64,000 bases of DNA, taken from contig CALRBH010000005.1 in the NCBI GenBank assembly GCA_943354165.1, forward strand, positions 18 to 64,017, in the 5' to 3' direction. Within the stretch, counting starts at the first letter, position 1. Every line of letters starts with the position of its first letter. The notes beneath the pieces were generated by a model. The model made no database searches, was not told the DNA's origin, and was given only the letters and a program-made list of their open reading frames with translations. The translations under genes were made by a program, and so were the position numbers. Source of the DNA: Candidatus Uhrbacteria bacterium RIFOXYB12_FULL_58_10. Its GTDB lineage: Bacteria > Patescibacteriota > Patescibacteriia > UBA9934 > GWF2-40-263. Positions 5,701-58,188 of the stretch are shown here, in pieces.

Positions 5701-5780
5701 AGTTAGTAGTAAGTAGATAGTAGTTAGTAGAGCTGACGGTGGAAACCCTACTACCTACTTACTACTATCTACTAACTAAG
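5701..5780. repeat. TAGTAG-family stop-codon-rich hairpin, copy T1 (arms of TTAGTAG/TAGATAG units, 17-nt loop)
   Basis: The left arm agttagtagtaagtagatagtagttagtag pairs with the right arm ctactacctacttactactatctactaactaag. Related copies occur at 8250..8326 and 34899..34997, with a half copy at 46400..46432. Confidence 0.85.
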
Positions 5781-8247: not shown

Positions 8248-8249
8248 GA

Positions 8250-8326
8250 GTTAGTAGTAAGTAGATAGTAGTTAGTAGGGTTGAATGACGGAAAACTACT
8301 ATCTACTTACTACTATCTACTATCTA
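8250..8326. repeat. TAGTAG-family hairpin, copy T2
   Basis: The arm gttagtagtaagtagatagtagttagtag pairs with ctactatctacttactactatctactatcta. It lies between the epimerase start and the prfB stop and provides the prfB TAG stop. Confidence 0.85.
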
Positions 8327-9772: not shown

Positions 9773-11742
<1,970 letters not shown>

Positions 11743-11748
11743 AAGATA

Positions 11749-11864
11749 GGGTTGTAAGGGTTGTAATGGACTGTTAGGGGCGAAAGGTCGCTAGGAAAGC
11801 ACGGACGGTCGGGAAAACCCCTTACCACCCTTACTGCCCTTACAGCCCTTACAGCCCTTACCGC
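11749..11864. repeat. GTAAGGG-family hairpin (G family) upstream of groES
   Basis: The forward arm gggttgtaagggttgtaatggactgttagggg is complemented by ccccttaccacccttactgcccttacagcccttacagcccttacc. Confidence 0.8.
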
Positions 11865-11884
11865 CCACGGAATGTCGCTAGATA

Positions 11885-17375: not shown

Positions 17376-17630
17376 ATAATTTTCAACTAACCAGGTCCGA
17401 CGCCCTGATGGGGTACGGACCCCCGACCGCATCAGCGCGTCGGGGCTGAGCTAAGCGTCCATAATTTTCAACTAACCAGGTCCGACGCCCTGATGGGGTA
17501 CGGACCCCCGACCGCATCAGCGCGTCGGGGCTGAGCTAAGCGTCCATAATTTTCAACTAACCAGGTCCGACGCCCTGATGGGGTACGGACCCCCGACCGC
17601 ATCAGCGCGTCGGGGCTGAGCTAAGCGTCC
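17376..17630. repeat. Three perfect tandem 85-bp units immediately 5' of tRNA-Val(TAC). In tRNA orientation each unit is the tRNA 5' 15 nt (GGACGCTTAGCTCAG), then a 51-nt GC-rich hairpin insert, then TGGTTAG and 11 nt.
   Basis: The period is 85 (units start at 17376, 17461 and 17546), and every unit ends with gctgagctaagcgtcc, identical to tRNA positions 1-16. The insert has inverted repeats (CCGACGC/GCGTCGG and CTGATG/CATCAG). A related single element lies 5' of tRNA-Ile at 34528..34620. Confidence 0.9.
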
Positions 17631-17640
17631 ATAATTGCTA

Positions 17641-19418: not shown

Positions 19419-20807
19419 TTACTTGAGTCTAGCCTTTCCCGTTGCGGCCTTCAAGGTCGCCCGGAACGTAGATCCCTTCAGTTTTCCGGCACTCTCGGCA
19501 ACAATGGTGCCTCCCATCCCTTCCATAAGCTTTTTGACGACGTACAACCCAAGTCCGGAAGACGTTTTTACAAACTTCGACGCATGGCCGCGGGCAAACT
19601 TTTCGAACAAGTGCATCTTGTCCTCGGGAGAAAGCCCAAACCCAGTATCCTTTACCTCGATGACCACAGAGCCTTCCTTCCGTTCGAGACGGATATGAAT
19701 CGATCCCTTCTCTGTGTACTTGAGCGCGTTGTCCGTCATGTTCATAACCACCTCCTTGAGCTTCTCAGGATCCGCCTGCGTCATGACAGGCTCCTTTGGC
19801 ACGTCGAGCGTCAACGCGACGCCCTTTTCCTTCGCATGTGCCTGCAGGAAGTCGCCGACCCAATGCACGATGGCTCCCGCATCCACATCCGCCATCTTCA
19901 CCTGCAGCCGGCCGGACTCGATGCGAGTAAGGTCAAGAAGATGGTTCACGAGCAGGATGAGCGATTCGGTGCTCTGGCGTACGTTTTCAAGTGCTGAGTG
20001 CTGTTTCTTGTTGATTTTTCCGACCATGCCGTCCTCAAGCATGGCCACATAGCCTTTCGTGATGGCGAGTGGCGTGCGCAGCTGATGGCTCGCGATCGAA
20101 AGAAATTCCGTCTTGAGGGAATCGAGCGCCTTGAGCTTATTATTTGCGACACGCAGCTTGCTGGTGGTGAGCTTCAACGCCTGGAACGTCTGCGCCTTCT
20201 GCACCGCAATCATAATCAGAGAGAGAAGGTTTTCGATGGTCTCACGCTCGTATCGCGTAAGATCGTCTGCCGCGCGGTTCAGTCCGAGGGCAAGTACGCC
20301 TACGGGGATTTTTCCAGAACACATCGGAAACACGAGCGCAAATTTCGCGCCGTGCTTCTCATCAAGCCGCTCCATCTCTTCCGCCGTGAAGGAAGGGGTG
20401 AAGACCTTTCCGAGCCAGTCATGTGTCTGACGCTTCCCGTTCTTAAGGGCTTTCACGCACAAATTTTCCTTGTGGGAGAGGGGAATGGGCAAACGATCAC
20501 CCACGGGCACATCACAGATCGAAGACTTCTTATCTCCACATGCGGCCGCCATCCAAGTGAGGTGTTTCCCTTCCATAACCGCAACGGCAACAAGGGGAAA
20601 AGAAAATTCGCGCACCAGGATCTGCGCGATCTGCCCCGTGAGCTCATGCGGCTCAAGGGAGGCCATGGCGACTTCATCGATGTCGCGCAGGAGCGAGAGG
20701 GTCTTATTACGCACAGCAAGCTCGGCGTTGCGCGCATACATCTCTCGATTCACTTCATCGAGCATGCGCTCCCGGCTCGCAAGTGAATGAGAGGTGCGGT
20801 CGGCCAT
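19419..20807 (-). CDS. Sensor histidine kinase with an N-terminal GAF-like domain (HisKA + HATPase_c), cytoplasmic
   Basis: It has an H-box (SIASHQLRTPL), an N box and a G box (DTGFGLSPED, GLGLYVVKK), and no TM segment. Confidence 0.85.
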   Translation of the reverse strand: MADRTSHSLASRERMLDEVNREMYARNAELAVRNKTLSLLRDIDEVAMASLEPHELTGQIAQILVREFSFPLVAVAVMEGKHLTWMAAACGDKKSSICDVPVGDRLPIPLSHKENLCVKALKNGKRQTHDWLGKVFTPSFTAEEMERLDEKHGAKFALVFPMCSGKIPVGVLALGLNRAADDLTRYERETIENLLSLIMIAVQKAQTFQALKLTTSKLRVANNKLKALDSLKTEFLSIASHQLRTPLAITKGYVAMLEDGMVGKINKKQHSALENVRQSTESLILLVNHLLDLTRIESGRLQVKMADVDAGAIVHWVGDFLQAHAKEKGVALTLDVPKEPVMTQADPEKLKEVVMNMTDNALKYTEKGSIHIRLERKEGSVVIEVKDTGFGLSPEDKMHLFEKFARGHASKFVKTSSGLGLYVVKKLMEGMGGTIVAESAGKLKGSTFRATLKAATGKARLK

Positions 20808-23468: not shown

Positions 23469-25178
23469 TTACATTTCCATTGCTGGCTTGATGCCGAGGA
23501 GCGCAAGACCGTTTTCGAGCACCTGCTGCACGGCCTTCACCGTCGCGAGGCGCGCCATGCGCTCTTCCCCTTCACTCGAGGCGACGGGAACGGCTTCGTA
23601 GTAGGAACTGAAGGTCTGGGCGAGGTCGAAGAGGTACTGGGCGATGAGACTTGGCTTCAACTCGGCTCCCGCGGCCGCTACGGCTTCAGGATAAGAGGCC
23701 AGCGCAAGCAGCAACCGATGCTCCAGTGGATGTGTGAACCTCAATCCCTTACCACCTTTACCGCCCTTACCACCTTTACCCGCCTTCTTGAGCACACTCG
23801 TTGCGCGGGCGAACATATAGAGGAGGTATGGGCCGGAGAAACCTTCGAACGACATGGCTTCGGCGCGATCAAAGATGATTTTCTTGTCCGGATCCTGCTT
23901 GAGCATCGCGAAGCGGATGGCGGCGAAGGCTACCGACTGCGCCGCGGCGTCGAGTTGCTTCTGGCTCCAGTCCTCATGGCGCTTCTTGGATTCCGCATGC
24001 GCCGCCGCGATCAGCTCATCGCGGAACTCTTCATACCGAATCGCGTTTCCTTTCCGGGAGGACATTGATCCTTCCTTAAGAGTGACGAATTCGTAGGAAA
24101 CGTGTTCCATCTCCTTCTCGAACCCCATCCGCTTGAGGGTCGCAAACAGCTGGCGCATGGCGAGCGTCTGGCGGCCGTCGATCACGAACAGACTGCGCGG
24201 GGCGTGATAGTCATCATCCTTGCGCATCGCGAGGGCGAGGTCCTTGGCGTTGTACAGAAGCGTCCCATCGGACTTCACAAGCAGGTTGGCTCCGAAGCCT
24301 TCATCCTCCAAGTCGACGATCCAAGCTCCTTCACTCATTTTTACGATCCCTTTCTTTTTCAAATCCTCGATGATCTCCTTGGTTTGAGGAATGAGATCGC
24401 TCTCATAATAGGTTTTCTGGATGGTGAGGCCGAGTTCCTTCTGGATGGCCTTAAAGTTCTTGAGCGACCAAGTGCGGGTTTGCTTCCAGAGGCGCACAGC
24501 GGGACCCTTGAGGTCCTCGAGCTCGTGGTGGATGGCGGAAATAGCCTGCTTCACTACTGGATCTGCAGACGCAGCGACCGCTTCCACGTACATGCGCTCA
24601 AGAAACGCGATATCATCCTCGTCCGCGCGGCGCTGGTCCTTGCTGCGCTGGATGGCCCAAAGACAGGCGGCCACGTTCGCGCCCAAATCGTTCACATAGG
24701 ACACGGGAATCACCTCATGACCGAGCGCACGCAGAAGATCAACGACCGCCTGGCCCAAAAAGAAATTTCGAAGGTGACCGACGTGCAATCCTTTGTGCGT
24801 ATTCGGGTTCGCGAACTCGACGAGGACCCGTTTGCCCTGGCCCGAATCGGACGTGCCGAACTTTTTGCCATCGGCGGCAATCTCTCCGAGGATCGCGGTG
24901 CCGAAAGAAGTGTCGTCGAACGTAAAGTTAATGTACGGACCCTTGGCCTCCGCCTTCTTAATGAATCCGTCTGGCGAAATCTTCGGCGCAAGCTCGGAAG
25001 CGATCTCCATGGGGTTCCGGCCCATTCCTTTTGCGAGGACGAAACAGGGAAACGCAATGTCGCCCATTGCTGGGTCTGGTGGGCTCGTGAGGTCTGCCAT
25101 CGTCGGCGCGTATTCCTTGCCGATCGCGGACTTCAACGCGAGCAGGACCTGCTTTTTGGCATCGAGCATGATGGACAT
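23469..25178 (-). CDS. argS: Arginine--tRNA ligase
   Basis: The 569-aa protein has a HIGH-region variant (PNTHKGLHVGHLRN), a KMSK-like motif and a DALR anticodon-binding C-terminus. It contains a GKGGKGGKGGKG insertion encoded by the G-family repeat. Confidence 0.95.
   Translation of the reverse strand: MSIMLDAKKQVLLALKSAIGKEYAPTMADLTSPPDPAMGDIAFPCFVLAKGMGRNPMEIASELAPKISPDGFIKKAEAKGPYINFTFDDTSFGTAILGEIAADGKKFGTSDSGQGKRVLVEFANPNTHKGLHVGHLRNFFLGQAVVDLLRALGHEVIPVSYVNDLGANVAACLWAIQRSKDQRRADEDDIAFLERMYVEAVAASADPVVKQAISAIHHELEDLKGPAVRLWKQTRTWSLKNFKAIQKELGLTIQKTYYESDLIPQTKEIIEDLKKKGIVKMSEGAWIVDLEDEGFGANLLVKSDGTLLYNAKDLALAMRKDDDYHAPRSLFVIDGRQTLAMRQLFATLKRMGFEKEMEHVSYEFVTLKEGSMSSRKGNAIRYEEFRDELIAAAHAESKKRHEDWSQKQLDAAAQSVAFAAIRFAMLKQDPDKKIIFDRAEAMSFEGFSGPYLLYMFARATSVLKKAGKGGKGGKGGKGLRFTHPLEHRLLLALASYPEAVAAAGAELKPSLIAQYLFDLAQTFSSYYEAVPVASSEGEERMARLATVKAVQQVLENGLALLGIKPAMEM
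23746..23784. repeat. GTAAGGG-family repeat embedded in-frame in argS, encoding (GKG)n
   Basis: cccttaccacctttaccgcccttaccacctttacccgcc is the reverse complement of GGTAAGGG/GGTAAAGG units and encodes KKAGKGGKGGKGGKG. Confidence 0.75.
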
Positions 25179-25187
25179 AGGGGTCGG

Positions 25188-25252
25188 AGGGCTGTAAGGG
25201 CGGTAAGGGTCGTAAGGGGCTGAATACGTTCCTCCCCTTCGCCAAGGGGAGG
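25188..25252. repeat. Composite intergenic spacer between argS and tyrS: GTAAGGG units followed by a P-family hairpin (cctcccc ttcgccaa ggggagg)
   Basis: gggctgtaagggcggtaagggtcgtaagggg is followed by cctccccttcgccaaggggagg. Confidence 0.75.
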
Positions 25253-25277
25253 TTGGGAGGGGTTGCCGTCCATGGCA

Positions 25278-26568: not shown

Positions 26569-29229
26569 TTACAGGGCTTTGAGCTGAACCTCTAAGGCCG
26601 ACAGCTTCAACTGCGCCTCTGCGAGCTTCGCCCGCATCTCGGCGACCACCTTCTCCGGCGCCTTACCAACGAATTCCTTGTTAGTAAGCTTGGCTTCCGT
26701 ACCATCAATGTACTTACGAGCCGAAGCGATCTCGCCTTCGATGCGCGTGCGTTCCTTCGCCATGTCTACGAGACCGGCGAGGGGGATATGTATCGTGAAT
26801 CCGGTACCGACGGCGGACATGCTTCCCTCTGGCTTAGCGGCATCAGCCGCAATCGTCAGTTCGCCCACACGCGCCAATCGACGAATCAGCGATGCGTTCG
26901 CTTCGAGAAGTTCCGCCTGCGCACCCGCCGAAATCACCGCGACAATTTCCTTGGCTGGTTCCACCTTGTAGTCGGCACGCATCGCACGAATCGACGTAAT
27001 GACGCTTCGGACGGTTTCGAACTGCGCTTCGGCCTCTTCGTCGCGCGCGCCCGAACTTGTCGGATAAGGTTCGATGATGAGCATGCCCTTCTCACCCATT
27101 TCCTTCCAGATCGTCTCCGTCACAAACGGCATGAACGGATGCCAGAGGCGAATGATTCCATTGAGAATGAACCGAAGGTTCGCGTCGGTCGATACGAGAA
27201 GCGTCGCGTCCGTACGCTGGATCTTTGCGATCTCGAGATACCAGTCGGCGAACTCACTCCAGGTGAATTCACGCAAAGTTTCTCCGGCGGCAGAGTAATC
27301 CTTGTTCTCAAGGAATCGAACGGTTTTGCTAACAGTTTCCTCGAATCGGGACATGATCCACCGATCAGCCAAGGTCGTTCCTGTGGCCTCCGGCCTAACG
27401 CCTAACGCCTGTGCCCCAACTGTCGTCAGCACGAACCGGGAAATGTTCCAAAGCTTGTTCGTAAAGTTCCGCAAGCCGGCAACCTTCTCCTCAGAGAGCT
27501 TCACGTCGTTCCCCGCCGTCGAACCGATCACGAGCGAGAGACGCGTGGCGTCCGCTCCGTACTTCGCGATCATGTCGAGCGGGTTGATGATGTTGCCGAG
27601 GGACTTCGACATCTTCCTTCCCTGCTCATCACGCACGAGGCCGTGCAAGTAAACTTCCTTGAACGGAACTTCACCGAGAAGATAAGTCGTCATGCTCACC
27701 ATGCGCACGACCCAGAAGGTCAGAATGTCGTAACCTGTTTCGAGAACGCTCGTCGGATGGAATGTCTTGAGATCGTTCGTCTTCTCAGGCCAACCCAATG
27801 TCGAAAACGTCCAAAGTCCGGAGCTGAACCAGGTATCGAGGGTGTCTTCATCCTGAACCCACCCATCTCCCTCAGGAGCCGATGTGCCGACAAAAGTTTC
27901 CTCCCCGACCTCCCGGACCTCCCCAACCTTCCCAACCTTTCGGTACCAGACAGGAACGCGATGTCCGAACCAAATCTGGCGGCTGATACACCAGTCGCGG
28001 AGATTATCGACCCATTGGAAGTAGGCCTTCTCGAATCGCTCTGGGGTGATCTTCACCTTGCCGGAACGAACGGCGTCCTGGGTCAAAGTTTTCAACGTCG
28101 CCTTCTTGCCATCGCGATCAAATTCCTTGGAAGCACTGATAAACCACTGCAATTTAGGCAAAGGTTCGACGGTTCCGCCCGAACGTTCGGCGGTCGCCAA
28201 GTTCTGAATCGTCTTTTCCTCTGCTTCGATGAGACCTTGCTCCTTCAACCATGAAGCGACGATTTCGCGGGCTTCTTTCGTTGTCTTGCCAGCGACGAGT
28301 GGTCCGGCCACCTCGTTCATCCGTCCGTCTTCACCAATCACCTGCTTCAAGGTGAGTCCGTGACGATCTGCGATATCGGCGTCGATCAAACTATGTGCAG
28401 GCGTAACACCAAGCGCACCGGTTCCGAACTCTGGATCGACGGAATCGTCGGCGACGACCTTAATGGAAATCGTCGTGCCAGCGAATGGGATGTTTCCGAA
28501 TGTCATCCCGACGAACTGCTTGTAACGAGCGTCCTTTGGGTTCACGGCCACGGCCATGTCCCCTACTTTGGTCTCCGGGCGCGTCGTGGAAATGGCGATC
28601 GGGAAGTCCTTGCTGTACTTGAACGTATAAAGCGTCGCCTCCACTTCCTTATAGATAATTTCGATGTCTGAAATGGTCGTCTGTCCAAGCGGATCCCAGT
28701 TAATGACGCGATAGCCGCGATAAATAAGGCCGTCGTCGTACATCTTTTTGAAGGCGACATTCACGGTATGATTGCGCTCTGCGTCGAGCGTGTAGGCCTC
28801 GCGACTCCAATCGAGCGAGCTCCCCATCTTCTTGCACTGGTTCACGATAGTATCGTGGCTCTCCTGGGCGAACTTGTTCACCTCATCCAAAAACTTCTCT
28901 CGGCCAAGCGTGTGGCGAGGAGATTTCATGCCGCCCTCGATCAAAAGCTTCTCGACTTTCGACTGAGTTGCAATCGCGGCGTGGTCTGTACCAGGAATCC
29001 AGAGCGCCTTCTTGCCGCGCATGCGCTCAAAACGGACCATGAGGTCCTGGATGGCGAGCATAGTGGCGTGGCCCATGTGGAGCGTGCCGGTCACGTTCGG
29101 TGGAGGCAGAACCATGGAGAACGGTTCTTTGCGTTCGCCTGGAAGATTGTCGGGGTTGAAGAATCCACTCTGTTCCCAGTCCTTATAGACCTGGTCTTCG
29201 TGGGCTCCTGGCTCGTAGGCTTTTGGCAT
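26569..29229 (-). CDS. valS: Valine--tRNA ligase
   Basis: MPKAYEPGAHE.. aligns with ValRS N-termini, and a HIGH-like motif (PPNVTGTLHMGHA), KMSKS and a C-terminal coiled coil are present. A W-family repeat is inserted in-frame at 27901..27943. The ORF extends upstream to 29388 through another W-family copy. Confidence 0.95.
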   Translation of the reverse strand: MPKAYEPGAHEDQVYKDWEQSGFFNPDNLPGERKEPFSMVLPPPNVTGTLHMGHATMLAIQDLMVRFERMRGKKALWIPGTDHAAIATQSKVEKLLIEGGMKSPRHTLGREKFLDEVNKFAQESHDTIVNQCKKMGSSLDWSREAYTLDAERNHTVNVAFKKMYDDGLIYRGYRVINWDPLGQTTISDIEIIYKEVEATLYTFKYSKDFPIAISTTRPETKVGDMAVAVNPKDARYKQFVGMTFGNIPFAGTTISIKVVADDSVDPEFGTGALGVTPAHSLIDADIADRHGLTLKQVIGEDGRMNEVAGPLVAGKTTKEAREIVASWLKEQGLIEAEEKTIQNLATAERSGGTVEPLPKLQWFISASKEFDRDGKKATLKTLTQDAVRSGKVKITPERFEKAYFQWVDNLRDWCISRQIWFGHRVPVWYRKVGKVGEVREVGEETFVGTSAPEGDGWVQDEDTLDTWFSSGLWTFSTLGWPEKTNDLKTFHPTSVLETGYDILTFWVVRMVSMTTYLLGEVPFKEVYLHGLVRDEQGRKMSKSLGNIINPLDMIAKYGADATRLSLVIGSTAGNDVKLSEEKVAGLRNFTNKLWNISRFVLTTVGAQALGVRPEATGTTLADRWIMSRFEETVSKTVRFLENKDYSAAGETLREFTWSEFADWYLEIAKIQRTDATLLVSTDANLRFILNGIIRLWHPFMPFVTETIWKEMGEKGMLIIEPYPTSSGARDEEAEAQFETVRSVITSIRAMRADYKVEPAKEIVAVISAGAQAELLEANASLIRRLARVGELTIAADAAKPEGSMSAVGTGFTIHIPLAGLVDMAKERTRIEGEIASARKYIDGTEAKLTNKEFVGKAPEKVVAEMRAKLAEAQLKLSALEVQLKAL
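27901..27943. repeat. W-family repeat (GGTTGGGGAAGTTTGGGAGGTTCGGAAGG type) inserted in-frame in valS, encoding KVGKVGEVREVGEE
   Basis: The plus strand ctccccgacctcccggacctccccaaccttcccaacctttcgg is the reverse complement of the family consensus. It lies in the conserved ..WYRK^..TFVG.. region. Confidence 0.8.
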
Positions 29230-29244
29230 GTCGGGCATAAGCGA

Positions 29245-29284
29245 GAGGTTTGGAAGGTTGGGGAGGTTCGGAAGGTTTGGAAGG
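29245..29284. repeat. W-family repeat just upstream of the valS start. If translated in the valS frame it would encode LPNLPNLPNL.
   Basis: gaggtttggaaggttggggaggttcggaaggtttggaagg. Confidence 0.8.
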
Positions 29285-29336
29285 ATGAGTTGAATCGGGT
29301 TTACTGTAGGGGAAATTGGGCTGGGGGGCAATATTG

Positions 29337-29365: not shown

Positions 29366-29905
29366 TCAACTTTTGAATCCGATTTCATCTTGTGATGAGT
29401 CTGGTTCGGAGAGAAGATGGCGCAGAGCCTCGAATACCGTGACGAACTGCTCGTCGTATGTCTTTTCCATCGCTTCTACTTTTTCAAGTAAGTCCTTATA
29501 ACCCTGGATCATTTCTCGCATTCTCGTAAATACACGGATGATCTGAATATTTACAAGAATCGCCCGCTCACTCTTTAGAACACTTGAAAGCATGGCAACG
29601 CCTTGCTCAGTAAAAGCCATTGGTCTCCAACGAAAATGTGTGGAGTCTTCGCCTAAGGTCACAATTTGTGACCTTAGATTTCTTGCTTCATACACAGTTA
29701 AAATGAACATAAAATCCTCCGGAAACCGTTCACTGTTTCGTTTCACTGCTTGCTTCAATACCTTCGTGGGCACGCCGTACAGTTCGGCTAAATCCGCATC
29801 CAACATCACCTTCCTCCCCCGAATCACGAAAATCCGTTGCTCAATCCTCTCCGACGGTACGAGCGACATATCCATACACGTAAAAAATAAAAACGCCTCC
29901 GGCAC
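29366..29905 (-). CDS. ORF6N (KilA-N-related) domain protein, typical of phage/mobile-element antirepressor-like genes. The region is locally AT-rich.
   Basis: RIFVIRGRKVMLDADLAELYGVPTKVLKQAVKRNSERFPEDFMFILT matches the ORF6N domain signature. The segment visibly has lower GC than its flanks. Confidence 0.7.
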   Translation of the reverse strand: MPEAFLFFTCMDMSLVPSERIEQRIFVIRGRKVMLDADLAELYGVPTKVLKQAVKRNSERFPEDFMFILTVYEARNLRSQIVTLGEDSTHFRWRPMAFTEQGVAMLSSVLKSERAILVNIQIIRVFTRMREMIQGYKDLLEKVEAMEKTYDEQFVTVFEALRHLLSEPDSSQDEIGFKS

Positions 29906-34889: not shown

Positions 34890-34898
34890 AGAACAAGA

Positions 34899-34997
34899 GT
34901 TAGTAGATAGTAGTAAGTAGTTAGTAGATAGTAGTAAGTAGTTAGTAGATTTTCCGTCGCACATCCCTACTAACTACTATCTACTAACTACTAACTC
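34899..34997. repeat. TAGTAG-family hairpin, copy T3 (left arm internally duplicated)
   Basis: gttagtagatagtagtaagtagttagtagatagtagtaagtagttagtagat, a loop, then tactaactactatctactaactactaactca. Confidence 0.85.
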
Positions 34998-49407: not shown

Positions 49408-49925
49408 GCGGTCCTGGGACGGCCGGACGGCTACGGTGGATCGCAAGATTCGCTGAGGAAAGTCCGAACACCCGTGGCATCGCAAGGTGCTACGCCAAGG
49501 AACGTCGCTAACGGCGACCGGGTATACCTGTGGGATGTAGAGGCGTTGGAGCAATTCACGCTTTTGGATCTCATAATAAGCCTAGGGAAAGTCTCCCCTG
49601 AAGATAGGACGGGGAGTGCGAAACCAGATCGAAAGGTCTGGGGACGTAGCCACAGAGACAATACTGACGGCCTTCGCGCAAGCCAGGCAGCTGCCTGGCA
49701 AGCATGGCCGCTCAAGGTGAAAAGTGAGGTGATGTGTCGCAAGACGCTGCACCTCTCCCTGCATGGTGACATGCAGGCGATGCAAACCCGTTCCGGTGCA
49801 AGAGCAAGTTTGGTAGCTCGCACGAGCCATGCAGCAATGTATGGACCAGAGAGATGGCCGTCTCCTGCGCACCTAACCCGTGCGGAGAAGACAAAATTCG
49901 GCTTACAGGCCGCTCCCAGGACAGC
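49408..49925 (+). ncRNA. rnpB: RNase P RNA (bacterial type A)
   Basis: The P4 strands GAGGAAAGTCCG and ACAAAATTCGGCTTACAGG are conserved, as are ACAGAGACAATAC..GGCC and AAGGTGAAAAGTG, which correspond to E. coli M1 CAACAGAGAGCAAACC and GGTAAGGGTGAAAGGGTG. P1 pairs GTCCTGGGA with TCCCAGGAC. A terminator follows. Confidence 0.85.
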
Positions 49926-49957
49926 TAAAACCCTCGCTTACCGCGGGGGTTTTTGCT
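49926..49957 (+). terminator. Rho-independent terminator after rnpB
   Basis: aaaaccctcgc-ttac-cgcgggggttttt. Confidence 0.65.
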
Positions 49958-49971
49958 ACCATACGCCTACT

Positions 49972-51393
49972 ATGAAGCGCTCAGAGCTATTCTTCACGAT
50001 CGTTCTCCTCCCCGTGGATCTGCTGGCCCTCATCGCGGCGTCTATTGCGGCGTTCCATTTGCGTCTGCACCCGTATTTCGTGAACCTCCGACCCGTCACC
50101 TTCGACCTCACCATCGAGAACTATCTTCCGGTAGCGACGCTCGTCTCCTTTGGGTGGATGGTCATCTTTGCCGTGAGCGGATTGTACGGCATGCGCCGGC
50201 GCGCGATGGCGACAGAGCTTACGCGCGTATTCCTTGCCTGCTCTGCCGGCATGGCCGGAGTGTTCTCCATTCTCTTCTTCTCCCGCACGCTTTTTGAATC
50301 GCGTTTCATCGCTGTCGCCGCATGGATCCTGGCAATCATTTTCGTCTGCGCGGCACGCATCGCGGTTCGTCTTGTCCAGCGCAGTCTCCTTTACGCCGGC
50401 ATCGGCGAACATAAGGTCGTCCTCATCGGCAACAGCCATTCCGGAGACGAGCTCGAGAAATTCTTCAAAGCCCGTCATCGGTTCGGCTTCCATGTCGCCG
50501 GTCATTTTCCTAAGTTCGATGAAGCCGCCCGCGAACACATCCATGCCCTCAAATCCAAGGACCAGGTCGATGAAATTTTCCTCGTCGATCCGGAAATGAG
50601 CCGAAAGGACGCCTTTGAGATCCTTTCGTTTACCGAAAACGAACACCTGGGCTTCCGCTACGTCGCCGATCTCTTTGCCGCGGCAGCCGGACGATCGATT
50701 ATCCATACGTTCACGGGGATTCCCGTCATCGAAGTACAGAAGACTCCCCTCGATGGTTGGGGCGCCATCTACAAGCGCATTTTCGACATCGTCGGATCGC
50801 TCGTTCTCATCATTGCAACCTTACCGATTCAAATCGTGGTCGCCATCGCCCTTTTCATCGAGAGTCCTGGGCGCGTATTCTTCTCCCGCCTTCCGAATGG
50901 CAAGAAAGTTCTGCGCATGGGCGGTTCAGGCCGGCCGTTCCACTACTTCAAGTTCCGTTCGATGATCAAGGACGCCCACCTGTTCCGATTCGATCCTGAC
51001 TTCGTAAAAAAGTACGGCAACCTTCGGGAAGGATCCCCCATGTTCAAACTCAAGGACGATCCGCGCGTCACCCGCGTAGGAAAGATCCTGCGCAAATACT
51101 CGCTCGATGAGCTGCCGGAGTTTTACCTCGTCCTGCTAGGCCGCATGTCGCTGGTCGGTCCACGCCCACATCTCCCGGAGGAGGTCGCTAACTACAAGCC
51201 GCACCAGCGCAAAGTGCTTACGATTAAGCCTGGAATCACCGGAATGGCCCAGATTAGCGGCCGTGCCGACCTTGACTTTGACGAAGAAGTCCGCCTAGAT
51301 GTGAGCTATATAGAGCGCTGGAGCCCATGGCTCGACCTCTACATCTTGCTCAAGACCCCCTTTGCTGTTTTGTTTAGAGGAGGGGCGTATTAA
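49972..51393 (+). CDS. Polyprenyl-phosphate sugar phosphotransferase (WbaP/CpsE-like bacterial sugar transferase)
   Basis: It has N-terminal TM helices and the C-terminal Bac_transf domain (..LDELPEFYLVLLGRMSLVGPRP..). The start is at MKRSELFF; the ORF 49474.. overlaps rnpB. Confidence 0.88.
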   Translation: MKRSELFFTIVLLPVDLLALIAASIAAFHLRLHPYFVNLRPVTFDLTIENYLPVATLVSFGWMVIFAVSGLYGMRRRAMATELTRVFLACSAGMAGVFSILFFSRTLFESRFIAVAAWILAIIFVCAARIAVRLVQRSLLYAGIGEHKVVLIGNSHSGDELEKFFKARHRFGFHVAGHFPKFDEAAREHIHALKSKDQVDEIFLVDPEMSRKDAFEILSFTENEHLGFRYVADLFAAAAGRSIIHTFTGIPVIEVQKTPLDGWGAIYKRIFDIVGSLVLIIATLPIQIVVAIALFIESPGRVFFSRLPNGKKVLRMGGSGRPFHYFKFRSMIKDAHLFRFDPDFVKKYGNLREGSPMFKLKDDPRVTRVGKILRKYSLDELPEFYLVLLGRMSLVGPRPHLPEEVANYKPHQRKVLTIKPGITGMAQISGRADLDFDEEVRLDVSYIERWSPWLDLYILLKTPFAVLFRGGAY

Positions 51394-51395
51394 AA

Positions 51396-51487
51396 GGGCT
51401 GTAAGGATGGTAAGGGCGGTAATGGACTGTAAGGGCGAAAGATCGAACCAACCCCTTACCATCCTTACAACCCTTACAGCCCTCACC
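51396..51487. repeat. GTAAGGG-family hairpin (G family) between wbaP and the GT4 gene
   Basis: gggctgtaaggatggtaagggcggtaatggactgtaagggcg pairs with ccccttaccatccttacaacccttacagccctcacc. Confidence 0.8.
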
Positions 51488-51501
51488 ACCCCACGATCCT
51501 C

Positions 51502-52590: not shown

Positions 52591-53727
52591 GTGAACATTC
52601 TCATAGACATCCGACATCTTGGAGGAGGAACTCCGAGCGGAGTCGGTCAGTACGCGCGCGAACTTTTGCGTGCGCTTCTTCCGCTTGATCCGACCGTTTC
52701 GTACACGTTGCTTTCGACCGGCTTTCGAAAACCAACGCTTCCCTTTTCACTTCCGCTAAACGCAAAACACGTTCACATCCACGCGCCCAACCGGGCGTTG
52801 TTTGCGTCCATGGCGTTGGCATTTCCGAAGCTCGATAAGCTCGTAAAAGGCCGATTCGACGTAGTTTTCGTGCCGAATCTACATGTGACTCCCCTCTCGG
52901 CTGGAATCCCGATGGTCCTCACGATCCACGACGCGAGCTGGCTGGTAAATCCGTCCTGGTTTTCTCCAAAGACAAGGCTCTGGCACAAGATCGTCCGACC
53001 GAAAGTGCTCGTCGATCGCGCAACGCGATTGATCGTTCCGTCTGAAAGCACCGCGCGAGAAGCACAGGCTTTCCTTGGCGCTGACCCGTCGAAAATTCGT
53101 ATAATCCCACACGGCGTGGATCCGATCTTTTCGCCGAAGCCGACGCCACAGGATCACGGCGTGCGATCGCGCTTGAATCTTCCGAAGCGCTTCGCTCTCT
53201 TCCTTGGAACCATCGAAGCGCGTAAAAACGTCGACGGAATCATCGAGGCGGTCCGAATGTACCGCGAGAAGACCGGCGATCGACTCGAACTCGTTCTCGT
53301 GGGATCGAAAGGTTGGGGAAGTTTGGGAGGTTCGGAAGGTTTGGGAGGACGAAAGGATGAGTGGGTTACTCGTCTAGGTTACGTCCCCGACACTGACCGT
53401 CCGGCGCTCTACCGATTCGCGTCCGTGTTTCTTTTTTCATCTCACATGGAAGGGTTCGGCATGCCTGTCCTTGAGGCGATGGCGAGCGGGACGCCGGTCA
53501 TCACCAGTCCGCGCGGTGCGCTCCCGGAAGTTGCCGGTGACGCGGCGATGTATGCAGACCCAATCGACCCGAATCGCATCGAAATGTGCCTTGAGCAATT
53601 CTTCGGTAGCCAAGAGTTACAAGCGAAATTATCGGCGCGTGGATTGGAACGAGCGAAGGGGTTTGATTGGGGAGAGACCGCGCGAAAGACCTTGGAAACA
53701 TTGAGAGAAGCGGCTGGGCACGAATAG
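52591..53727 (+). CDS. Glycosyltransferase family 4 (GT-B), with an in-frame W-family repeat insertion
   Basis: EGFGMPVLEAMASGTPVI is present. The linker LVLVGSKGWGSLGGSEGLGGRKDE is encoded by the repeat at 53311..53348. Confidence 0.85.
   Translation: MNILIDIRHLGGGTPSGVGQYARELLRALLPLDPTVSYTLLSTGFRKPTLPFSLPLNAKHVHIHAPNRALFASMALAFPKLDKLVKGRFDVVFVPNLHVTPLSAGIPMVLTIHDASWLVNPSWFSPKTRLWHKIVRPKVLVDRATRLIVPSESTAREAQAFLGADPSKIRIIPHGVDPIFSPKPTPQDHGVRSRLNLPKRFALFLGTIEARKNVDGIIEAVRMYREKTGDRLELVLVGSKGWGSLGGSEGLGGRKDEWVTRLGYVPDTDRPALYRFASVFLFSSHMEGFGMPVLEAMASGTPVITSPRGALPEVAGDAAMYADPIDPNRIEMCLEQFFGSQELQAKLSARGLERAKGFDWGETARKTLETLREAAGHE
53311..53348. repeat. W-family repeat in-frame within the GT4 gene (encodes GWGSLGGSEGLGG)
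   Basis: ggttggggaagtttgggaggttcggaaggtttgggagg. Confidence 0.8.
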
Positions 53728-54297: not shown

Positions 54298-54346
54298 AAC
54301 CCCAACCTCCCCAACCTTCCGAACTTCCCAAACCTCCCCAACCCCT
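54298..54346. repeat. W-family repeat (reverse orientation), intergenic upstream of the GT4 gene
   Basis: caaccccaacctccccaaccttccgaacttcccaaacctccccaacccc. Confidence 0.8.
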
Positions 54347-54368
54347 CGCGATTTGCTATACTGCCCGT

Positions 54369-55482: not shown

Positions 55483-58188
55483 ATGGAGGAGAACGGCCGC
55501 AACAATCCACGCATTATTGCTCGGGTAAACGAAACCGCGAGCGACTCGGCGCTTGAGAGGCTTTTGCGTACGCGCCGTTCGAGTCTCACCGCGGACAACT
55601 CGCTTCCAGGCGAGGTGCGGGCGCGCAGTCTGTTCCAGCCGGAGGAACAGGGACTTTTTCTTAAACGCACTTCACACAATCCCCTTTCCCCGCACATTCT
55701 CTCCCTGCGCGCGCCCGCCCAGGAGCCAGAGGCCTCGTTTGATGGCGTGAACATGCTGGATGGCGAAGTGGTAGAAATTGTAGAAGGCGTAGAAAATGGG
55801 CTTGGTTTGGATCGCGACGACCTTGCCGGACAGCTGCTTGAAGAAACCCTGCCGCTCATCGACACTTCAAAGACTTCTTTGCAATACGTAGAAATTGCCC
55901 TGCCGGATCTTGCTGGTTTCCGCCGCGAAGCCGAGCTCCTTGGACTGAATGCCTTGGAGGTTGCGCCGGATGGCGCAGACCTCTCCGTACTGGCGCCGGT
56001 TTCCATGCCAGAGCGGCTCGCAAACATGTTCGAACTCCCCGATGCCGATGAATCGGAGGGTGAGGAAGAAGACGTTCTCATCGAATTCGCCGGACACGAC
56101 GAAGGTGTCGTGACAATCGAAGAGGTTGGGGAAGTTTGGGATGTTCGGGAAGTTGAGGAGGAAATAAACCTTCCGAACCTACCAAACCTCCCCAACATCC
56201 CAAACCTTTCGTTTTGGCGCTTGCCGCAGCTCCGCACGCTCGGAGCGTTCGTTCTGCTTTCCTTCGCCATCGTTCTGCCGATTCATGCAATGAATGTGGC
56301 GGGAATTTGGGGGAATGCCAAAGACGCTGTGACGAAGCAAGGAGAAACCGGGGCGACGTTGCTTTCTTCCGGAGCCTCTTCCGCGCTTTCGCGTGATGCG
56401 TCTGAGGCGGCGCGTGCGTTTGGCAGCGCGCAGACGAGCTTTGCGCAGGCCCAGTCGTCCGTGTCGAATCTTGGCGTCGCGGCGAACGCGATCATTTCGG
56501 CATTGCCATCAGGATCGAAGGTGGCCTCTGCGAACGCCGTGCTTACGGCCGGTGAAGCTCTCTCGATTGCTGGCGGTCGCATCTCTGAAGGCATCGCTTC
56601 GCTTGGGAACGATCCGCTCGCGAGCCCAACGGACCGCATCGCGCTCTTGCAGGCGTACCTTGAAGGCGCGCTTCCTCACCTTGAGCGTGCGGAGGCAGCC
56701 ATCGCAAAGGTGGATGTACAAACCCTCCCACCAGAAAGCCAATCACGTTTCACCATCCTTCAACAATCCATTCCAAGCGTCGTCTCCGGGATCCGCGAGC
56801 TCATCGAAGTGACCGATGCGGCCTATGCCGTGCTTGGCGGAACCGGGACCAAGCGCTACCTCGCCATCTTCCAGAACAATACGGAAATTCGCCCAACAGG
56901 TGGGTTCATGGGGAGCTTCGCCGAGATGGATATTCGCAAAGGCGAGATCGCCAAGCTCACCATTCCGGGCGGCGGAACGTACGATCTGCGCGCGGGCGTC
57001 ATGAAGCCGTTCATTTCTCCGAAACCACTCAGACTCCTCTCCGCCGCATGGGAATTCCAGGACGCGAACTGGTTCCCAGACTTCCCTACGAGCGCGCGCC
57101 AGATCATGCAGTTCTATGAACATGCCGGACAACCAACGGTAGATGGGGTGATCGCCGTGAACGCCACGTTCGTCGCCTCCCTCCTCGATCTCCTTGGCTC
57201 CATAGAGATGCCGGAATACGGACGCACCATCGACAGCAAGAATTTCCTCCTCGAGACGCAGAAAATCGTAGAGAATGAATACGATCGCGACGAGAACAAG
57301 CCGAAGGCGTTCATCGGCGACCTCGCACCGAAACTTCTTGAGAAGGCTAAGGCGCTTCCGCCAGAAGGATTCCTCGCCTTCCTCGACACCTTGCAGCAAG
57401 GACTCTCTTCCCGCGACATCCAGATCTACTTCGATGATCAGGAGCTCCAGAAACAGGTGATTGAACGCGGATGGGGCGGCGAGCTCAAGTGGAGCGACGG
57501 CGATTACTTCATGGCCGTGGACACCAACCTCGGCGGCGGGAAAACAGACGGCGTCATCCAGCAGAAGATCGACATAAAGGTGAACATTGAGGCCGATGGA
57601 ACCGTTACGGACTCCGTCACGGTCACCCGCACGCACTTTGGCCAGCCAGGAAGCGACTTCTCCGGAGTGAACAACGTCGATTACCTGCGCTTATACGTTC
57701 CCAAAGGCAGTGAGCTTCTCTCAGCCGACGGGTTCTCCATTCCAGACGCCTCCCTCTTCGACGCTCCGATGACGGATTGGCTCATCGACGATGACTTGAT
57801 CTACGGATTGGACGGTGCAAAGACGGATGCGAAGAGCGGAACGGACATCTTCGAGGAATCCGGGAAGACCGTATTCGGCAACTGGATCCAAACGAAACCA
57901 GGCGCCACATCCACCGCACATTTCACCTATCGACTGCCGTTCAAGGTGGAGGTCGGGAAGGCGGATCCTACGCTCATCGACCGGCTGAAGACTTCCCTAG
58001 GGGTCCCAAACACCGGCCGCTACACACTCACCCTCCAGAAGCAGTCCGGGATCCTCGATCGCACCACGACCGTTCACCTTACCGCACCTGAAGCCTGGAA
58101 TCTCGCCTGGTCTTCGCATGAAACGGACGGCGTATCCTTCACCAACGCCATGGATTCATTCTTCGCTACCATCTTTGAACGCAACTAG
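55483..58188 (+). CDS. DUF4012 domain protein (membrane-anchored, cell-envelope glycan associated), carrying an in-frame W-family hairpin
   Basis: The 901-aa protein has an internal TM helix (LGAFVLLSFAIVLPI) and the DUF4012-like core (YLAIFQNNTEIRPTGGFMGSFA...DANWFPDFP). The region 56124..56211 encodes EVGEVWDVREVEEEINLPNLPNLPNIPNL. Confidence 0.7.
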   Translation: MEENGRNNPRIIARVNETASDSALERLLRTRRSSLTADNSLPGEVRARSLFQPEEQGLFLKRTSHNPLSPHILSLRAPAQEPEASFDGVNMLDGEVVEIVEGVENGLGLDRDDLAGQLLEETLPLIDTSKTSLQYVEIALPDLAGFRREAELLGLNALEVAPDGADLSVLAPVSMPERLANMFELPDADESEGEEEDVLIEFAGHDEGVVTIEEVGEVWDVREVEEEINLPNLPNLPNIPNLSFWRLPQLRTLGAFVLLSFAIVLPIHAMNVAGIWGNAKDAVTKQGETGATLLSSGASSALSRDASEAARAFGSAQTSFAQAQSSVSNLGVAANAIISALPSGSKVASANAVLTAGEALSIAGGRISEGIASLGNDPLASPTDRIALLQAYLEGALPHLERAEAAIAKVDVQTLPPESQSRFTILQQSIPSVVSGIRELIEVTDAAYAVLGGTGTKRYLAIFQNNTEIRPTGGFMGSFAEMDIRKGEIAKLTIPGGGTYDLRAGVMKPFISPKPLRLLSAAWEFQDANWFPDFPTSARQIMQFYEHAGQPTVDGVIAVNATFVASLLDLLGSIEMPEYGRTIDSKNFLLETQKIVENEYDRDENKPKAFIGDLAPKLLEKAKALPPEGFLAFLDTLQQGLSSRDIQIYFDDQELQKQVIERGWGGELKWSDGDYFMAVDTNLGGGKTDGVIQQKIDIKVNIEADGTVTDSVTVTRTHFGQPGSDFSGVNNVDYLRLYVPKGSELLSADGFSIPDASLFDAPMTDWLIDDDLIYGLDGAKTDAKSGTDIFEESGKTVFGNWIQTKPGATSTAHFTYRLPFKVEVGKADPTLIDRLKTSLGVPNTGRYTLTLQKQSGILDRTTTVHLTAPEAWNLAWSSHETDGVSFTNAMDSFFATIFERN
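56124..56211. repeat. Complete W-family hairpin (forward and reverse arms) embedded in-frame in the DUF4012 gene
   Basis: The forward arm ggttggggaagtttgggatgttcgggaagttgaggagg, then aaataaa, then the reverse arm ccttccgaacctaccaaacctccccaacatcccaaacctttcg. Both arms are translated. Confidence 0.8.

What the first reader, a model, noticed from the sequence alone, without database searches (positions are those of the whole stretch)
23746..23784. GTAAGGG-family repeat translated as (GKG)n inside arginyl-tRNA synthetase
The GTAAGGG/GGTAAAGG units that build intergenic hairpins at 11749-11864, 25188-25221 and 51396-51487 also occur in-frame within argS, adding KKAGKGGKGGKGGKG to the enzyme. The family is therefore both an intercistronic hairpin and a tolerated coding insert.
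Basis: seen in the sequence. Interest (0 to 1): 0.55.

Follow-up and report, generated by a model that had tools for sequence, protein, structure and literature searches.

The report
Repeat-array tract inside arginyl-tRNA synthetase linker
A short 9-base repeat that elsewhere in this uncultured bacterium builds hairpins between genes also sits in frame in a floppy surface linker of arginyl-tRNA synthetase. There it reads Gly-Lys-Gly four times but lengthens the enzyme by only about three residues, so it is a modest new example of a known kind of repeat.

Summary
Window 23745-23786 (minus strand) is a 9-nt-period array, an exact 18-nt duplication, read in frame as (GKG)4 in a bona fide ArgRS of a Candidatus Uhrbacteria scaffold.

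It is not a 15-residue insert. KKAG[K/R] is conserved in orthologues. The tract overwrites a hypervariable, basic, disordered linker between the first two helices of the DALR domain. The linker is 16 aa against a modal 13 (range 12-18).

The GTAAGGGNN unit belongs to a dispersed family in this window. The third (25188-25221) is a single arm in argS's own leader, complementary to the coding tract 1.4 kb away.

A sister 9-nt family is clearly copied into genes: an 11-aa insertion in ValRS, a same-length replacement in a glycosyltransferase, and a whole hairpin in a DUF4012 protein.

For argS alone, the match to the family is mostly forced by the peptide (recoding P = 0.03-0.09). A relative grew a different 9-nt array at the same site. 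Independent slippage therefore remains a live rival.

The array class is already described in Xanthomonas and Nostoc, so this is a new member of a known kind.

The parts
23745..23786 (-). In-frame 9-nt-period array in argS. Coding strand: GCG GGT AAA GGT GGT AAG GGC GGT AAA GGT GGT AAG GGA, giving A(GKG)4. It is an exact 18-nt tandem duplication.
23469..25178 (-). argS (ArgRS, 569 aa). The tract covers residues ~467-478, in the linker between helix 449-466 and helix 484-494 of the DALR anticodon-binding domain.
25188..25223 (-). Single GTAAGGGNN arm (3 units) in the tyrS-argS spacer. It is C-rich on the argS mRNA and ends 9 nt upstream of the argS AUG. It is 87% complementary over 30 nt to the coding tract 1423 nt away.
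25230..25262 (.). Small separate hairpin CCTCCCCTT-CGCC-AAGGGGAGG (with GGTTGGGAGGGG tail) in the same spacer. Its sequence resembles the second 9-nt family.
11745..11866 (.). GTAAGGGNN hairpin (G-arm, loop, 5-unit C-arm on the + strand) upstream of groES. It shares loop sequence with the 51394 copy.
11416..11449 (.). Single GTAAGGGNN arm between groES and groEL. It is 94% complementary over 34 nt to 11817-11850, 367 nt away.
51394..51491 (.). GTAAGGGNN hairpin that fills the spacer from the stop codon at 51393 to 10 nt before the start at 51502.
27900..27942 (-). In-frame RAGGTYNGG array in valS. It is a 33-nt (KVGKVGEVREV) insertion relative to two syntenic orthologues.
29242..29298 (-). RAGGTYNGG arm in the valS leader. 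It is C-rich on the mRNA and ends 7 nt before the AUG at 29238. It is 84% complementary over 44 nt to the valS coding array 1299 nt away.
53305..53356 (+). In-frame RAGGTYNGG array in a GT4 glycosyltransferase (SKGWGSLGGSEGLGGRKD). It replaces the canonical segment at the same length.
54300..54348 (+). RAGGTYNGG C-arm in the leader of the next GT4 gene. It is 88% complementary over 43 nt to 53306-53348, 957 nt away.
56121..56208 (+). Complete RAGGTYNGG hairpin, both arms, in frame in a DUF4012 protein (VGEVWDVREV-EEE-INLPNLPNLPNIPNL). It lies in the hypervariable linker before the TM helix.
5701..5778 (.). 7-nt (AGTTAGT/CTACTAA) array hairpin in a spacer.
8249..8326 (.). 7-nt array hairpin that fills the whole spacer between the stop at 8324 and the start at 8247.
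34897..34997 (.). 7-nt array hairpin that ends 10 nt before the start at 35007.

Best explanation
**Shown.** The tract is a lineage-specific, in-frame, 9-nt-period array. It overwrites the variable part of an already basic, disordered linker between the first two helices of the ArgRS anticodon-binding (DALR) domain. The net gain is about 3 residues.

**Inferred.**
- It is a coding-region copy of one arm of this genome's dispersed GTAAGGGNN array family. That family consists of G-rich short-period tandem arrays that normally form G-arm/loop/C-arm hairpins in spacers, or single C-rich leader arms directly upstream of start codons.
- The conserved K-K-A-G-K codons (AAG AAG GCG GGT AAR) already resemble a family unit. 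They acted as a homology seed.
- Slipped-strand or template-switch copying, most simply from the nearest array in argS's own leader 1.4 kb away on the opposite strand, laid down GGT-AAR-GGN units. A recent exact 18-nt slippage then doubled them.
- The tract survives because, of the six reading frames of the unit, this one gives Gly/Lys. That matches the flexible, basic character the linker has in all orthologues.
- For the enzyme it is most likely a neutral passenger.
For: **Real and in frame:**

**Linker context.**
- Linker length is 16 aa. The mode is 13 (95 of 120 orthologues) and the range is 12-18.
- The first two linker positions are G (72/120) and K/R (98/120).
- The linker is 27% K+R across orthologues.
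- AF2 model: mean pLDDT 91. The tract is coil with pLDDT about 52, the lowest in the protein.

**Family membership.**
- Core and period enrichment.
- Alignment to the intergenic arms, including the ...GTAAGGG-R-Y-T-G end.
- GGT is 14.8% of Gly codons. GK is spelled GGT-AAR in 3 of 94 cases elsewhere and 4 of 4 here.

**Family copies are homologous dispersed elements.** They share non-repeat loop sequence.

**Precedent in the same window.**
- ValRS: 33-nt in-frame insertion relative to two syntenic orthologues at 69-70% identity, recoding P = 0.0004.
- GT4: same-length replacement.
- DUF4012: whole hairpin in frame in real coding sequence.

**Nearby complementary arm.** For argS, valS and GT4 the best reverse-complement match in the 64-kb window is the nearby one, at 1402, 1308 and 958 nt. 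NusA, GroEL and Wzy arrays have none.

**Junction microhomology**.

**Lineage-specific.** No G/K tract in 131 other ArgRS sequences. The closest relatives, at 64% identity or less, lack it.
Against: - Conditional on the peptide (GKG)4, the nucleotide match to the intergenic arms is only 29/36 against a mean of 25.8. P = 0.028 if codons are independent, 0.07 allowing for the 18-nt duplication, and 0.09 for a single 9-nt seed.
- The first G-K is ancestral, so a seed for pure in situ slippage was present.
- L003 grew an unrelated 9-nt array at exactly this site, with no partner or family in 21.7 kb.
- The nearby arm is only marginally the best match (27 against 26 and 25 of 36).
- Two of the four units carry AAA, which mismatches the partner.
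- No mobilising enzyme is encoded in the window.
- Only one 64-kb scaffold of this genome could be examined.
Confidence: 0.58

Rival explanations
1. Independent in situ slippage. The conserved G-K at the start of the linker, plus a following Gly, was duplicated by ordinary replication slippage (9 nt, then 18 nt). The resemblance to the spacer family is a by-product of encoding Gly-Lys-Gly.
For: - The recoding test is only P = 0.03-0.09.
- The G[K/R] start is ancestral.
- L003 has an independent (GCTCATGGG)4 array at the same site with no family or partner.
- P0027 (VRKEKQVRKEAA) and P0242 (AHRAHGA) also show repetitive linkers.
- The exact 18-nt duplication shows that slippage operates here.
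Against: - GGT-AAR encodes only 3 of 94 GK dipeptides elsewhere.
- The unit, period and array end match a family with 17 hits against 0.03 expected.
- A complementary same-family arm sits in the gene's own leader.
- Three other in-frame arrays in the same 64 kb match a spacer family, one of them at P = 0.0004.
Confidence: 0.3
2. Functional long-range RNA duplex. The C-rich leader arm, which sits where a ribosome would load, pairs with the G-rich in-frame arm 1.3-1.4 kb downstream in the same mRNA. This happens in both argS and valS and creates a 30-45 bp duplex that controls translation start or directs RNase III-type cleavage.
For: - Predicted duplexes are -52.5 kcal/mol (argS), -72.4 (valS), -76.2 (GT4) and -59.9 (groES). 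Shuffled partners give -29 to -40.
- The arrangement is the same in two aaRS genes.
- Leader arms abut the AUG, and the genome is SD-poor, with 8 of 57 leaders showing any SD core.
Against: - There is no conservation. The closest relatives lack both arms, and L003 has the coding array without a partner.
- AAA codons break pairing in 2 of 4 argS units.
- The arms are explained more simply by family identity plus the rule that leaders carry C-arms.
- No Rfam family covers these spacers.
- No expression data are available.
Confidence: 0.08
3. Adaptive protein change. The extra Gly/Lys loop was selected because it improves tRNA-Arg binding by the anticodon-binding domain.
For: - The linker is basic in all orthologues, with K 19.5% and R 7.7%.
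- The tract keeps that character.
- It lies in the DALR domain.
Against: - The linker is hypervariable in sequence and length, which argues against specific contacts.
- The tract is predicted to be disordered.
- No other ArgRS has it.
- The same genome shows equally odd tracts in unrelated proteins.
Confidence: 0.04

Closest known systems
Dispersed G-rich short-period tandem repeats of Xanthomonas (GGGAATC) and Nostoc (GGGGAYT), Rehm et al. 2015, PMC4692102. Related cyanobacterial and Beggiatoaceae heptamer repeats (TAACTGA) are in PMC4679880.
   Same: - Short G-rich units in tandem, dispersed, mostly non-coding and close to ORF ends.
- Upstream copies have the G-rich strand on the non-coding strand, so the mRNA leader is C-rich. 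Downstream copies have it on the coding strand.
- Many occur as convergent inverted pairs able to form stem-loops, and a minority lie inside genes.
- In this window, 10 genes have a C/A-rich arm 1-32 nt before the AUG. Hairpins begin at or just after stop codons.
- TAACTGA arrays likewise end 1 nt before start codons that have no SD.
   Different: - The units here are 9 nt (GTAAGGGNN, RAGGTYNGG) as well as 7 nt.
- The host is a small-genome Patescibacterium (Uhrbacteria).
- The 9-nt families are found in frame in essential genes.
- Copies share supra-unit and loop sequence, so they behave as dispersed elements.
- G-quadruplex formation was not tested here.
Rickettsia palindromic elements (RPEs), reviewed in PMC10969869.
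   Same: Repeated palindromic non-coding elements that are also found inserted in frame in unrelated housekeeping genes. They add peptide segments compatible with the protein fold.
   Different: - RPEs are about 100-150 bp, encode a conserved peptide and insert whole.
- The argS tract is a 36-41 nt single arm made of 9-nt units, with a net gain of about 3 aa.
- Only the DUF4012 case contains a whole hairpin.
- No target-site duplication or transposase was seen.
Amino-acid tandem repeats created by nucleotide tandem repeats in Borg elements (PMC9879509).
   Same: - Tandem repeats occur in both spacers and ORFs.
- Those in ORFs have unit lengths divisible by three and create intrinsically disordered segments.
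- Flanking partial repeats are read as seeds, and slippage is proposed.
   Different: - Borg repeats arise independently at each site with different units.
- Here the coding units match dispersed spacer families and have inverted partners nearby.
- The arrays here are imperfect apart from the 18-nt duplication.
REP/BIME elements and their RAYT transposases (PMC3733652).
   Same: Short dispersed palindromes in spacers, proposed to affect mRNA stability or termination.
   Different: - The arms here are tandem arrays rather than 20-40 bp GTAG/CGTC-tagged palindromes.
- No RAYT is encoded in the window.

Membership tests
G-rich short-period dispersed tandem-repeat arrays (Rehm et al. 2015 class) | Unit of 6-9 nt, G-rich on one strand, in tandem runs of about 2 to more than 4 copies | tested here: met
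   TRF finds period 9 x 3.9-4.1 copies at 23746-23786. Sister arrays have 2-5 units.
G-rich short-period dispersed tandem-repeat arrays (Rehm et al. 2015 class) | Many dispersed copies, over-represented in non-coding DNA | tested here: met
   GTAAGGG occurs 22 times against 3.4 expected, and the two-unit pattern 17 times against 0.03. Five of the six GTAAGGG-array sites are in spacers. Only one 64-kb scaffold is available.
G-rich short-period dispersed tandem-repeat arrays (Rehm et al. 2015 class) | Frequent convergent inverted pairs able to form stem-loops | tested here: met
   Hairpins fold at -31 to -59 kcal/mol with z -3.2 to -6.5. The argS tract itself is a single arm.
G-rich short-period dispersed tandem-repeat arrays (Rehm et al. 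2015 class) | Placement rule: upstream of ORFs with the G-rich strand non-coding, downstream with the G-rich strand coding | tested here: met
   10 genes have a C/A-rich arm 1-32 nt before the AUG. G-arms start at stop codons. There is one exception, at 19419..20807.
G-rich short-period dispersed tandem-repeat arrays (Rehm et al. 2015 class) | Copy-number variation between strains; G-quadruplex formation in vitro | not testable with these tools
   No reads or strain variants are available, and no closer relative than 64% identity exists. The exact 18-nt duplication hints at recent slippage.
RPE-like / MITE in-frame insertion | A whole palindromic element (about 100-150 bp) inserted in frame, adding a peptide | tested here: not met
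   The argS tract is one arm of 36-41 nt with a net gain of +3 aa. ValRS gains 11 aa from a single arm. Only DUF4012 holds both arms.
RPE-like / MITE in-frame insertion | Terminal inverted repeats with target-site duplications, and a related transposase | tested here: inconclusive
   No transposase, RAYT or RT is found among the annotated ORFs. No TSD is evident by eye at the hairpin flanks. This was not searched systematically, and the rest of the genome is unseen.
Slippage-born coding tandem repeat (aaTR) | Unit length divisible by three; perfect or near-perfect copies; flanking partial unit as seed; product disordered | tested here: met
   9-nt and 18-nt units, with the 18-nt copy exact. 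The KKAGK codons resemble a unit. pLDDT is about 52.
Arginyl-tRNA synthetase (class Ia) | N-terminal Add1 domain, Rossmann catalytic domain with HIGH (HVGH) and MSSRKG motifs, and DALR domain | tested here: met
   Pfam E-values are 2e-17, 2e-51 and 6e-30. H132, G134, H135, M372, R375 and G377 are invariant in 51 sequences. TM is 0.91 to 1f7u_A.
T-box or other known aaRS leader RNA | Match to an Rfam covariance model in the 5' leader | tested here: not met
   The Rfam gathering scan of the window finds only RNase P RNA and 6 tRNAs.

The most novel reading that the evidence does not exclude
In this Patescibacterium, spacer repeat arrays are copied in inverted orientation into coding sequence within about 1-1.4 kb, the scale of a replication fork, by microhomology-guided template switching. 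That would make the process a recurrent way for non-coding repeats to rewrite loops of essential proteins (ArgRS, ValRS, a glycosyltransferase).

The resulting leader-to-CDS complementary pairs of 30-45 bp, seen in two aaRS mRNAs, might also act as long-range RNA duplexes. Such duplexes could gate SD-independent initiation or direct RNase III-type cleavage.
Probability: 0.15. Interest if true: 0.75.

Novelty: new member of a known kind. Interest (0 to 1): 0.4.

Why it matters
- It shows that in a reduced-genome, uncultured lineage, short-period repeat arrays that normally fill intergenic spacers can end up in frame in essential translation enzymes. They are tolerated when they land in disordered, hypervariable linkers.
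- This is a small-scale analogue of Rickettsia RPEs and Borg amino-acid repeats.
- It cautions annotators that odd low-complexity tracts in conserved proteins can be repeat-derived DNA rather than sequencing errors.
- If it proves general, the pairing of each coding arm with a nearby complementary spacer arm would point to a specific local copying mechanism or to long-range mRNA structure.
- For ArgRS itself the consequence is probably nil.

Tried and rejected
- **Large insertion in ArgRS: rejected.** Orthologues are 565-572 aa against 569 here. The linker is 16 aa against a modal 13.
- **Known leader RNA or T-box in the argS, valS or tyrS spacers: rejected.** There are no Rfam hits.
- **Mobile element with its own enzyme: no support.** No transposase, RAYT or RT is found in 40 annotated ORFs.
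- **Codon usage as proof of family origin: weakened.** The raw GGT rarity looked strong. The proper recoding test gives only P = 0.03-0.09.
- **Universal 'G-arm first' chirality, suggesting end-healing by a telomerase-like activity: dropped.** The distal argS and valS pairs, the small 25230 hairpin and the 20816 hairpin are C-first.
- **NusA VEx array and GroEL GGM tail as further family inserts: rejected.** These are ancestral protein-level repeats. L003 NusA has the same VEx tail with different DNA, and neither has a complementary partner.
- **More copies of this exact element in metagenomes: none found.** The loop signature gave 0 hits. The RAGGTYNGG supra-unit signature gave 1 hit in an unrelated organism.
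- **Genome-collection scan for (GTAAGGGNN)3: no Uhrbacteria found.** It did show the unit in many phyla. High-GC open frames make coding calls there unreliable.
- **Position of the linker relative to tRNA in 1F7U, 2ZUE or 5B63: not obtainable.** Neither the tools nor the open papers searched gave it.
- **Assembly artefact: unlikely.** Both flanks are collinear with orthologues and the frame is intact. Read support could not be checked.
Full report
**1. What is there**

The + strand at 23746-23786 reads CCCTTACCA CCTTTACCG CCCTTACCA CCTTTACCC GCC. On the minus strand this lies in frame in ORF 23469..25178 (569 aa). The coding strand reads GCG GGT AAA GGT GGT AAG GGC GGT AAA GGT GGT AAG GGA, which translates as A-(GKG)4 within ...SVLKKAGKGGKGGKGGKGLRFTHPLEH....

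Tandem Repeats Finder reports period 9 with about 4 copies. It also reports period 18 with 1.9 copies at 100% identity, so the last event was an exact 18-nt duplication.

The ORF is a complete arginyl-tRNA synthetase:
- It has Arg_tRNA_synt_N, tRNA-synt_1d and DALR_1 domains.
- The HVGH and MSSRKG motifs are invariant in a 51-sequence alignment.
- The AlphaFold model has mean pLDDT 91 and pTM 0.90. It superposes on the yeast ArgRS-tRNA complex 1f7u_A at TM 0.91.

The best homologues are Candidatus Uhrbacteria / Patescibacteria ArgRS at 64% identity or less. The source record is ENA scaffold MEHR18-3_SAMN08297413_METAG-scaffold_448.

**2. Is it more than chance?**

GTAAGGG occurs 22 times in the window against 3.4 expected. 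The two-unit pattern GTAARGGNNGTAARGG (up to 1 mismatch) occurs 17 times against 0.03 expected, and 3 of those hits are the argS tract.

The other sites are:
- 11423-11448;
- 11748-11766 with 11819-11866;
- 25188-25218;
- 51394-51437 with 51453-51491.

The two paired sites fold into very stable hairpins, at -59 and -44.6 kcal/mol with z -4.2 and -5.9. They share non-repeat loop sequence (CGAYCTTTCGCCC...ACAGTCCATTAC), so they are homologous dispersed copies.

Its array stays single-stranded in the fold of the spacer.

**3. Is it an insert?**

Only marginally. In 120 orthologues, the segment between the conserved ...S.LKKA helix end and the P.EH.LL helix start is hypervariable. Its first two positions are conserved, though: G in 72 of 120 and K/R in 98 of 120. 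Overall it is basic, with K 19.5% and R 7.7%.

Its length is 13 aa in 95 of 120 orthologues, with a range of 12-18. Here it is 16 aa. So KKAGK is ancestral. The array overwrites the variable residues and adds about 3 aa.

In the solved ArgRS structures, the aligned linker is of similar or greater length. In the model, the tract is coil between helices 449-466 and 484-494. Its pLDDT is about 52, the lowest in the protein.

No other ArgRS among the 131 retrieved has a (G[KR]G)n or long G/K tract. That set includes a search seeded with the tract itself.

**4. Does the tract derive from the spacer family?**

*For:*
- The period, the core and the array end (GTAAGGG-R-Y-T-G) match the intergenic arms.
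- GGT is the rarest Gly codon, at 14.8%.
- Gly-Lys is spelled GGT-AAR in 3 of 94 cases elsewhere, but in 4 of 4 cases in the tract.

*Against:*
- I recoded the peptide with the window's codon usage and scored each recoding against the six intergenic arms. Any (GKG)4 encoding already matches at a mean of 25.8 of 36 positions.
- The observed 29 of 36 gives P = 0.028 if codons are independent. It gives 0.07 allowing for the 18-nt duplication, and 0.09 if one 9-nt seed was amplified.
- A relative at 57% identity (L003) carries an unrelated 9-nt array, (GCTCATGGG)4 = AHGAHEAHGAHG. It starts at exactly the same point after KKA. No copy or complement of that unit exists elsewhere in 21.7 kb.

The linker is therefore a slippage-permissive hotspot in its own right.

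**5. Context that tips the balance**

The window is full of 7- and 9-nt arrays. A second 9-nt family, RAGGTYNGG, is unambiguously copied into genes:
- **ValRS (26569..29238, -).** It has KVGKVGEVREV as a clean 33-nt insertion relative to two syntenic orthologues at 69-70% identity. Its recoding test gives P = 0.0004.
- **A GT4 glycosyltransferase.** It has SKGWGSLGGSEGLGGRKD in place of the canonical G.G...helix...V.F.G segment, at equal length.
- **A DUF4012 protein.** It holds both arms of a hairpin in frame (VGEVWDVREV-EEE-INLPNLPNLPNIPNL). The hairpin lies in the hypervariable linker before the TM helix. Full-length homologues show that this N-terminal region is truly coding.

By eye, from the sequences, all arms of this family share a supra-unit order (...TTGGG / ...TTTGG / ...TTCGG / ...). 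They are therefore copies of a ~40-nt element, not independent slippage products.

By contrast, the NusA VEx tail and the GroEL GGM tail are ancestral protein repeats.

**6. An unexpected regularity**

An unbiased inverted-repeat scan ranks three distal pairs near the top:

| Coding arm | Partner arm | Length | Complementarity | Separation |
|---|---|---|---|---|
| GT4 53306-53348 | 54306-54348 | 43 nt | 88% | 957 nt |
| valS 27899-27942 | 29242-29285 | 44 nt | 84% | 1299 nt |
| argS 23741-23770 | 25194-25223 | 30 nt | 87% | 1423 nt |

For each of these three coding arms, the best reverse-complement match in the whole window is the nearby one, although the margins are small. The NusA, GroEL and Wzy arrays have none.

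In argS and valS, the partner is the gene's own leader and ends 9 and 7 nt before the AUG. Predicted RNA duplexes are -52 to -76 kcal/mol, against -29 to -40 for shuffled partners.

The junctions show microhomology between the ancestral target and the nearby donor:
- ValRS: TAY CGN | GGN GAS GAG against CGAGAGGTT...GGAAGGA.
- argS: AAG AAG GCG GGT AAA against GTAAGGGCGGTAAGG.

I read this as suggestive of homology-seeded template switching from the nearest array, followed by slippage. It is inference, from one scaffold.

**7. What the arrays are in general**

The genome is SD-poor. Only 8 of 57 leaders show any SD-like core, and leaders are generally G-poor.

Ten genes have a C/A-rich array arm 1-32 nt before the AUG on the sense strand. 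Hairpin G-arms begin at or next to the upstream stop codon.

This is the placement rule reported for G-rich heptamer repeats in Xanthomonas and Nostoc. Those genomes also hold 70-75 convergent inverted pairs each, plus a minority of intragenic copies (PMC4692102). TAACTGA arrays in Beggiatoaceae and cyanobacteria similarly end 1 nt before SD-less starts (PMC4679880).

Arrays of the very same GTAAGGGNN unit occur in Gemmatimonadales, Flavobacteriales, Peribacteria, Mucilaginibacter and Nostoc, often as G-arm/loop/C-arm hairpins. RAGGTTNGG recurs as a post-stop hairpin in another organism.

The window contains no Rfam family on these spacers and no transposase, RAYT or RT.

**8. Verdict**

- **Observation:** confirmed.
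- **Interpretation:** partly supported.
- **Best explanation (0.58):** a coding-region copy of one arm of a dispersed G-rich array family, seeded on the conserved KKAGK codons and expanded by slippage. It is tolerated because this frame gives Gly/Lys in a disordered basic linker, and it is neutral for the enzyme.
- **Main rival (0.30):** purely local slippage with a coincidental resemblance to the family.
- **Other rivals:** a functional leader-CDS duplex (0.08) and adaptive tRNA binding (0.04). Neither has supporting conservation, since close relatives lack the arrays.
- **Comparison with known systems:** relative to RPEs (PMC10969869) and Borg amino-acid repeats (PMC9879509), this is a new member of a known kind.
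- **Loose end worth following:** the nearby-partner regularity.

Noticed in passing
window 17360-17636: An 85-nt unit is repeated 3.3 times at 100% identity. The unit starts inside the 5' end of tRNA-Val(TAC) (17299-17375, - strand) and includes about 69 nt upstream of it. This could be a real promoter or leader duplication, or an assembly artefact.
   Followed up: no
L003 11401-11438 (argS of a 57%-identity relative): An independent 9-nt array, (GCTCATGGG)4 = AHGAHEAHGAHG, starts at exactly the same ArgRS linker position after KKA. P0027 (VRKEKQVRKEAA) and P0242 (AHRAHGA) suggest that this linker is a recurrent slippage hotspot in Uhrbacteria.
   Followed up: partly
window 27900-27942 / 29242-29298; 53305-53356 / 54300-54348; 11416-11449 / 11817-11850: Complementary same-family arms flank 0.37-1.3 kb segments: the 5' part of valS, the 3' part of a GT4 gene plus a spacer, and all of groES. 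Predicted RNA duplexes are -60 to -76 kcal/mol.
   Followed up: partly
window 56121-56208: A complete array hairpin (both arms and loop) is translated in frame in a 901-aa DUF4012 protein. The source record's own gene call (P0121, 100% identical) includes it.
   Followed up: yes
window, all gene starts: Only 8 of 57 leaders have any Shine-Dalgarno-like core within -20..-4, and leaders are G-poor. Ten genes have a C/A-rich repeat arm 1-32 nt before the AUG, which suggests SD-independent initiation in this organism.
   Followed up: partly
window 14962-14996 and 55770-55804: The NusA C-terminal tail (IVESVEGVENVET) and the DUF4012 N-terminal region (VVEIVEGVENG) share 26 of 35 nt on their coding strands. 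This is a third 9-nt 'VEx' unit, seen only in coding sequence. L003 NusA has a VEx tail with different DNA.
   Followed up: partly
window 13028-13056 and 55390-55418: 7-nt-period arrays, (GTAGTTG)x4 and (CCGACTA)x4, lie inside the Wzy_C-family and GT4 ORFs even though the period is not a multiple of three. The two are 72% reverse-complementary to each other over 29 nt. Whether they are insertions was not checked against orthologues.
   Followed up: no
window 49415-49922: The RNase P RNA (class A) match spans 508 nt for a 367-position model, which implies sizeable insertions. The mechanical ORF 49474..51393 overlaps it, so the sugar-transferase gene must start further downstream.
   Followed up: no
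window 29366-29905: An ORF6N-domain (KilA-N-like) gene sits directly upstream of the valS leader array. The syntenic relatives L001 and L003 have different genes there.
   Followed up: no
L029 (Gemmatimonadales MAG SMAG_U3937), match at 6088-6112 (- strand) and the ~190 nt that follow it on that strand; also L037, L080, L084: An unrelated phylum carries many (GGTAAGGGC)n / (GCCCTTACC)n hairpins. Their C-arm (CCTTTACCACCTTTACCGCCCTTACC) is almost identical to the argS tract. The same unit also appears in Flavobacteriales, Peribacteria, Mucilaginibacter and Nostoc.
   Followed up: partly
window 51265-52434 (- strand call in the ENA record) vs 51502-52587 (+): The source record's gene caller chose a 389-aa ORF on the opposite strand with no Pfam hit. 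The + strand ORF is a clear GT4 glycosyltransferase (Glycos_transf_1, E = 1e-25).
   Followed up: no
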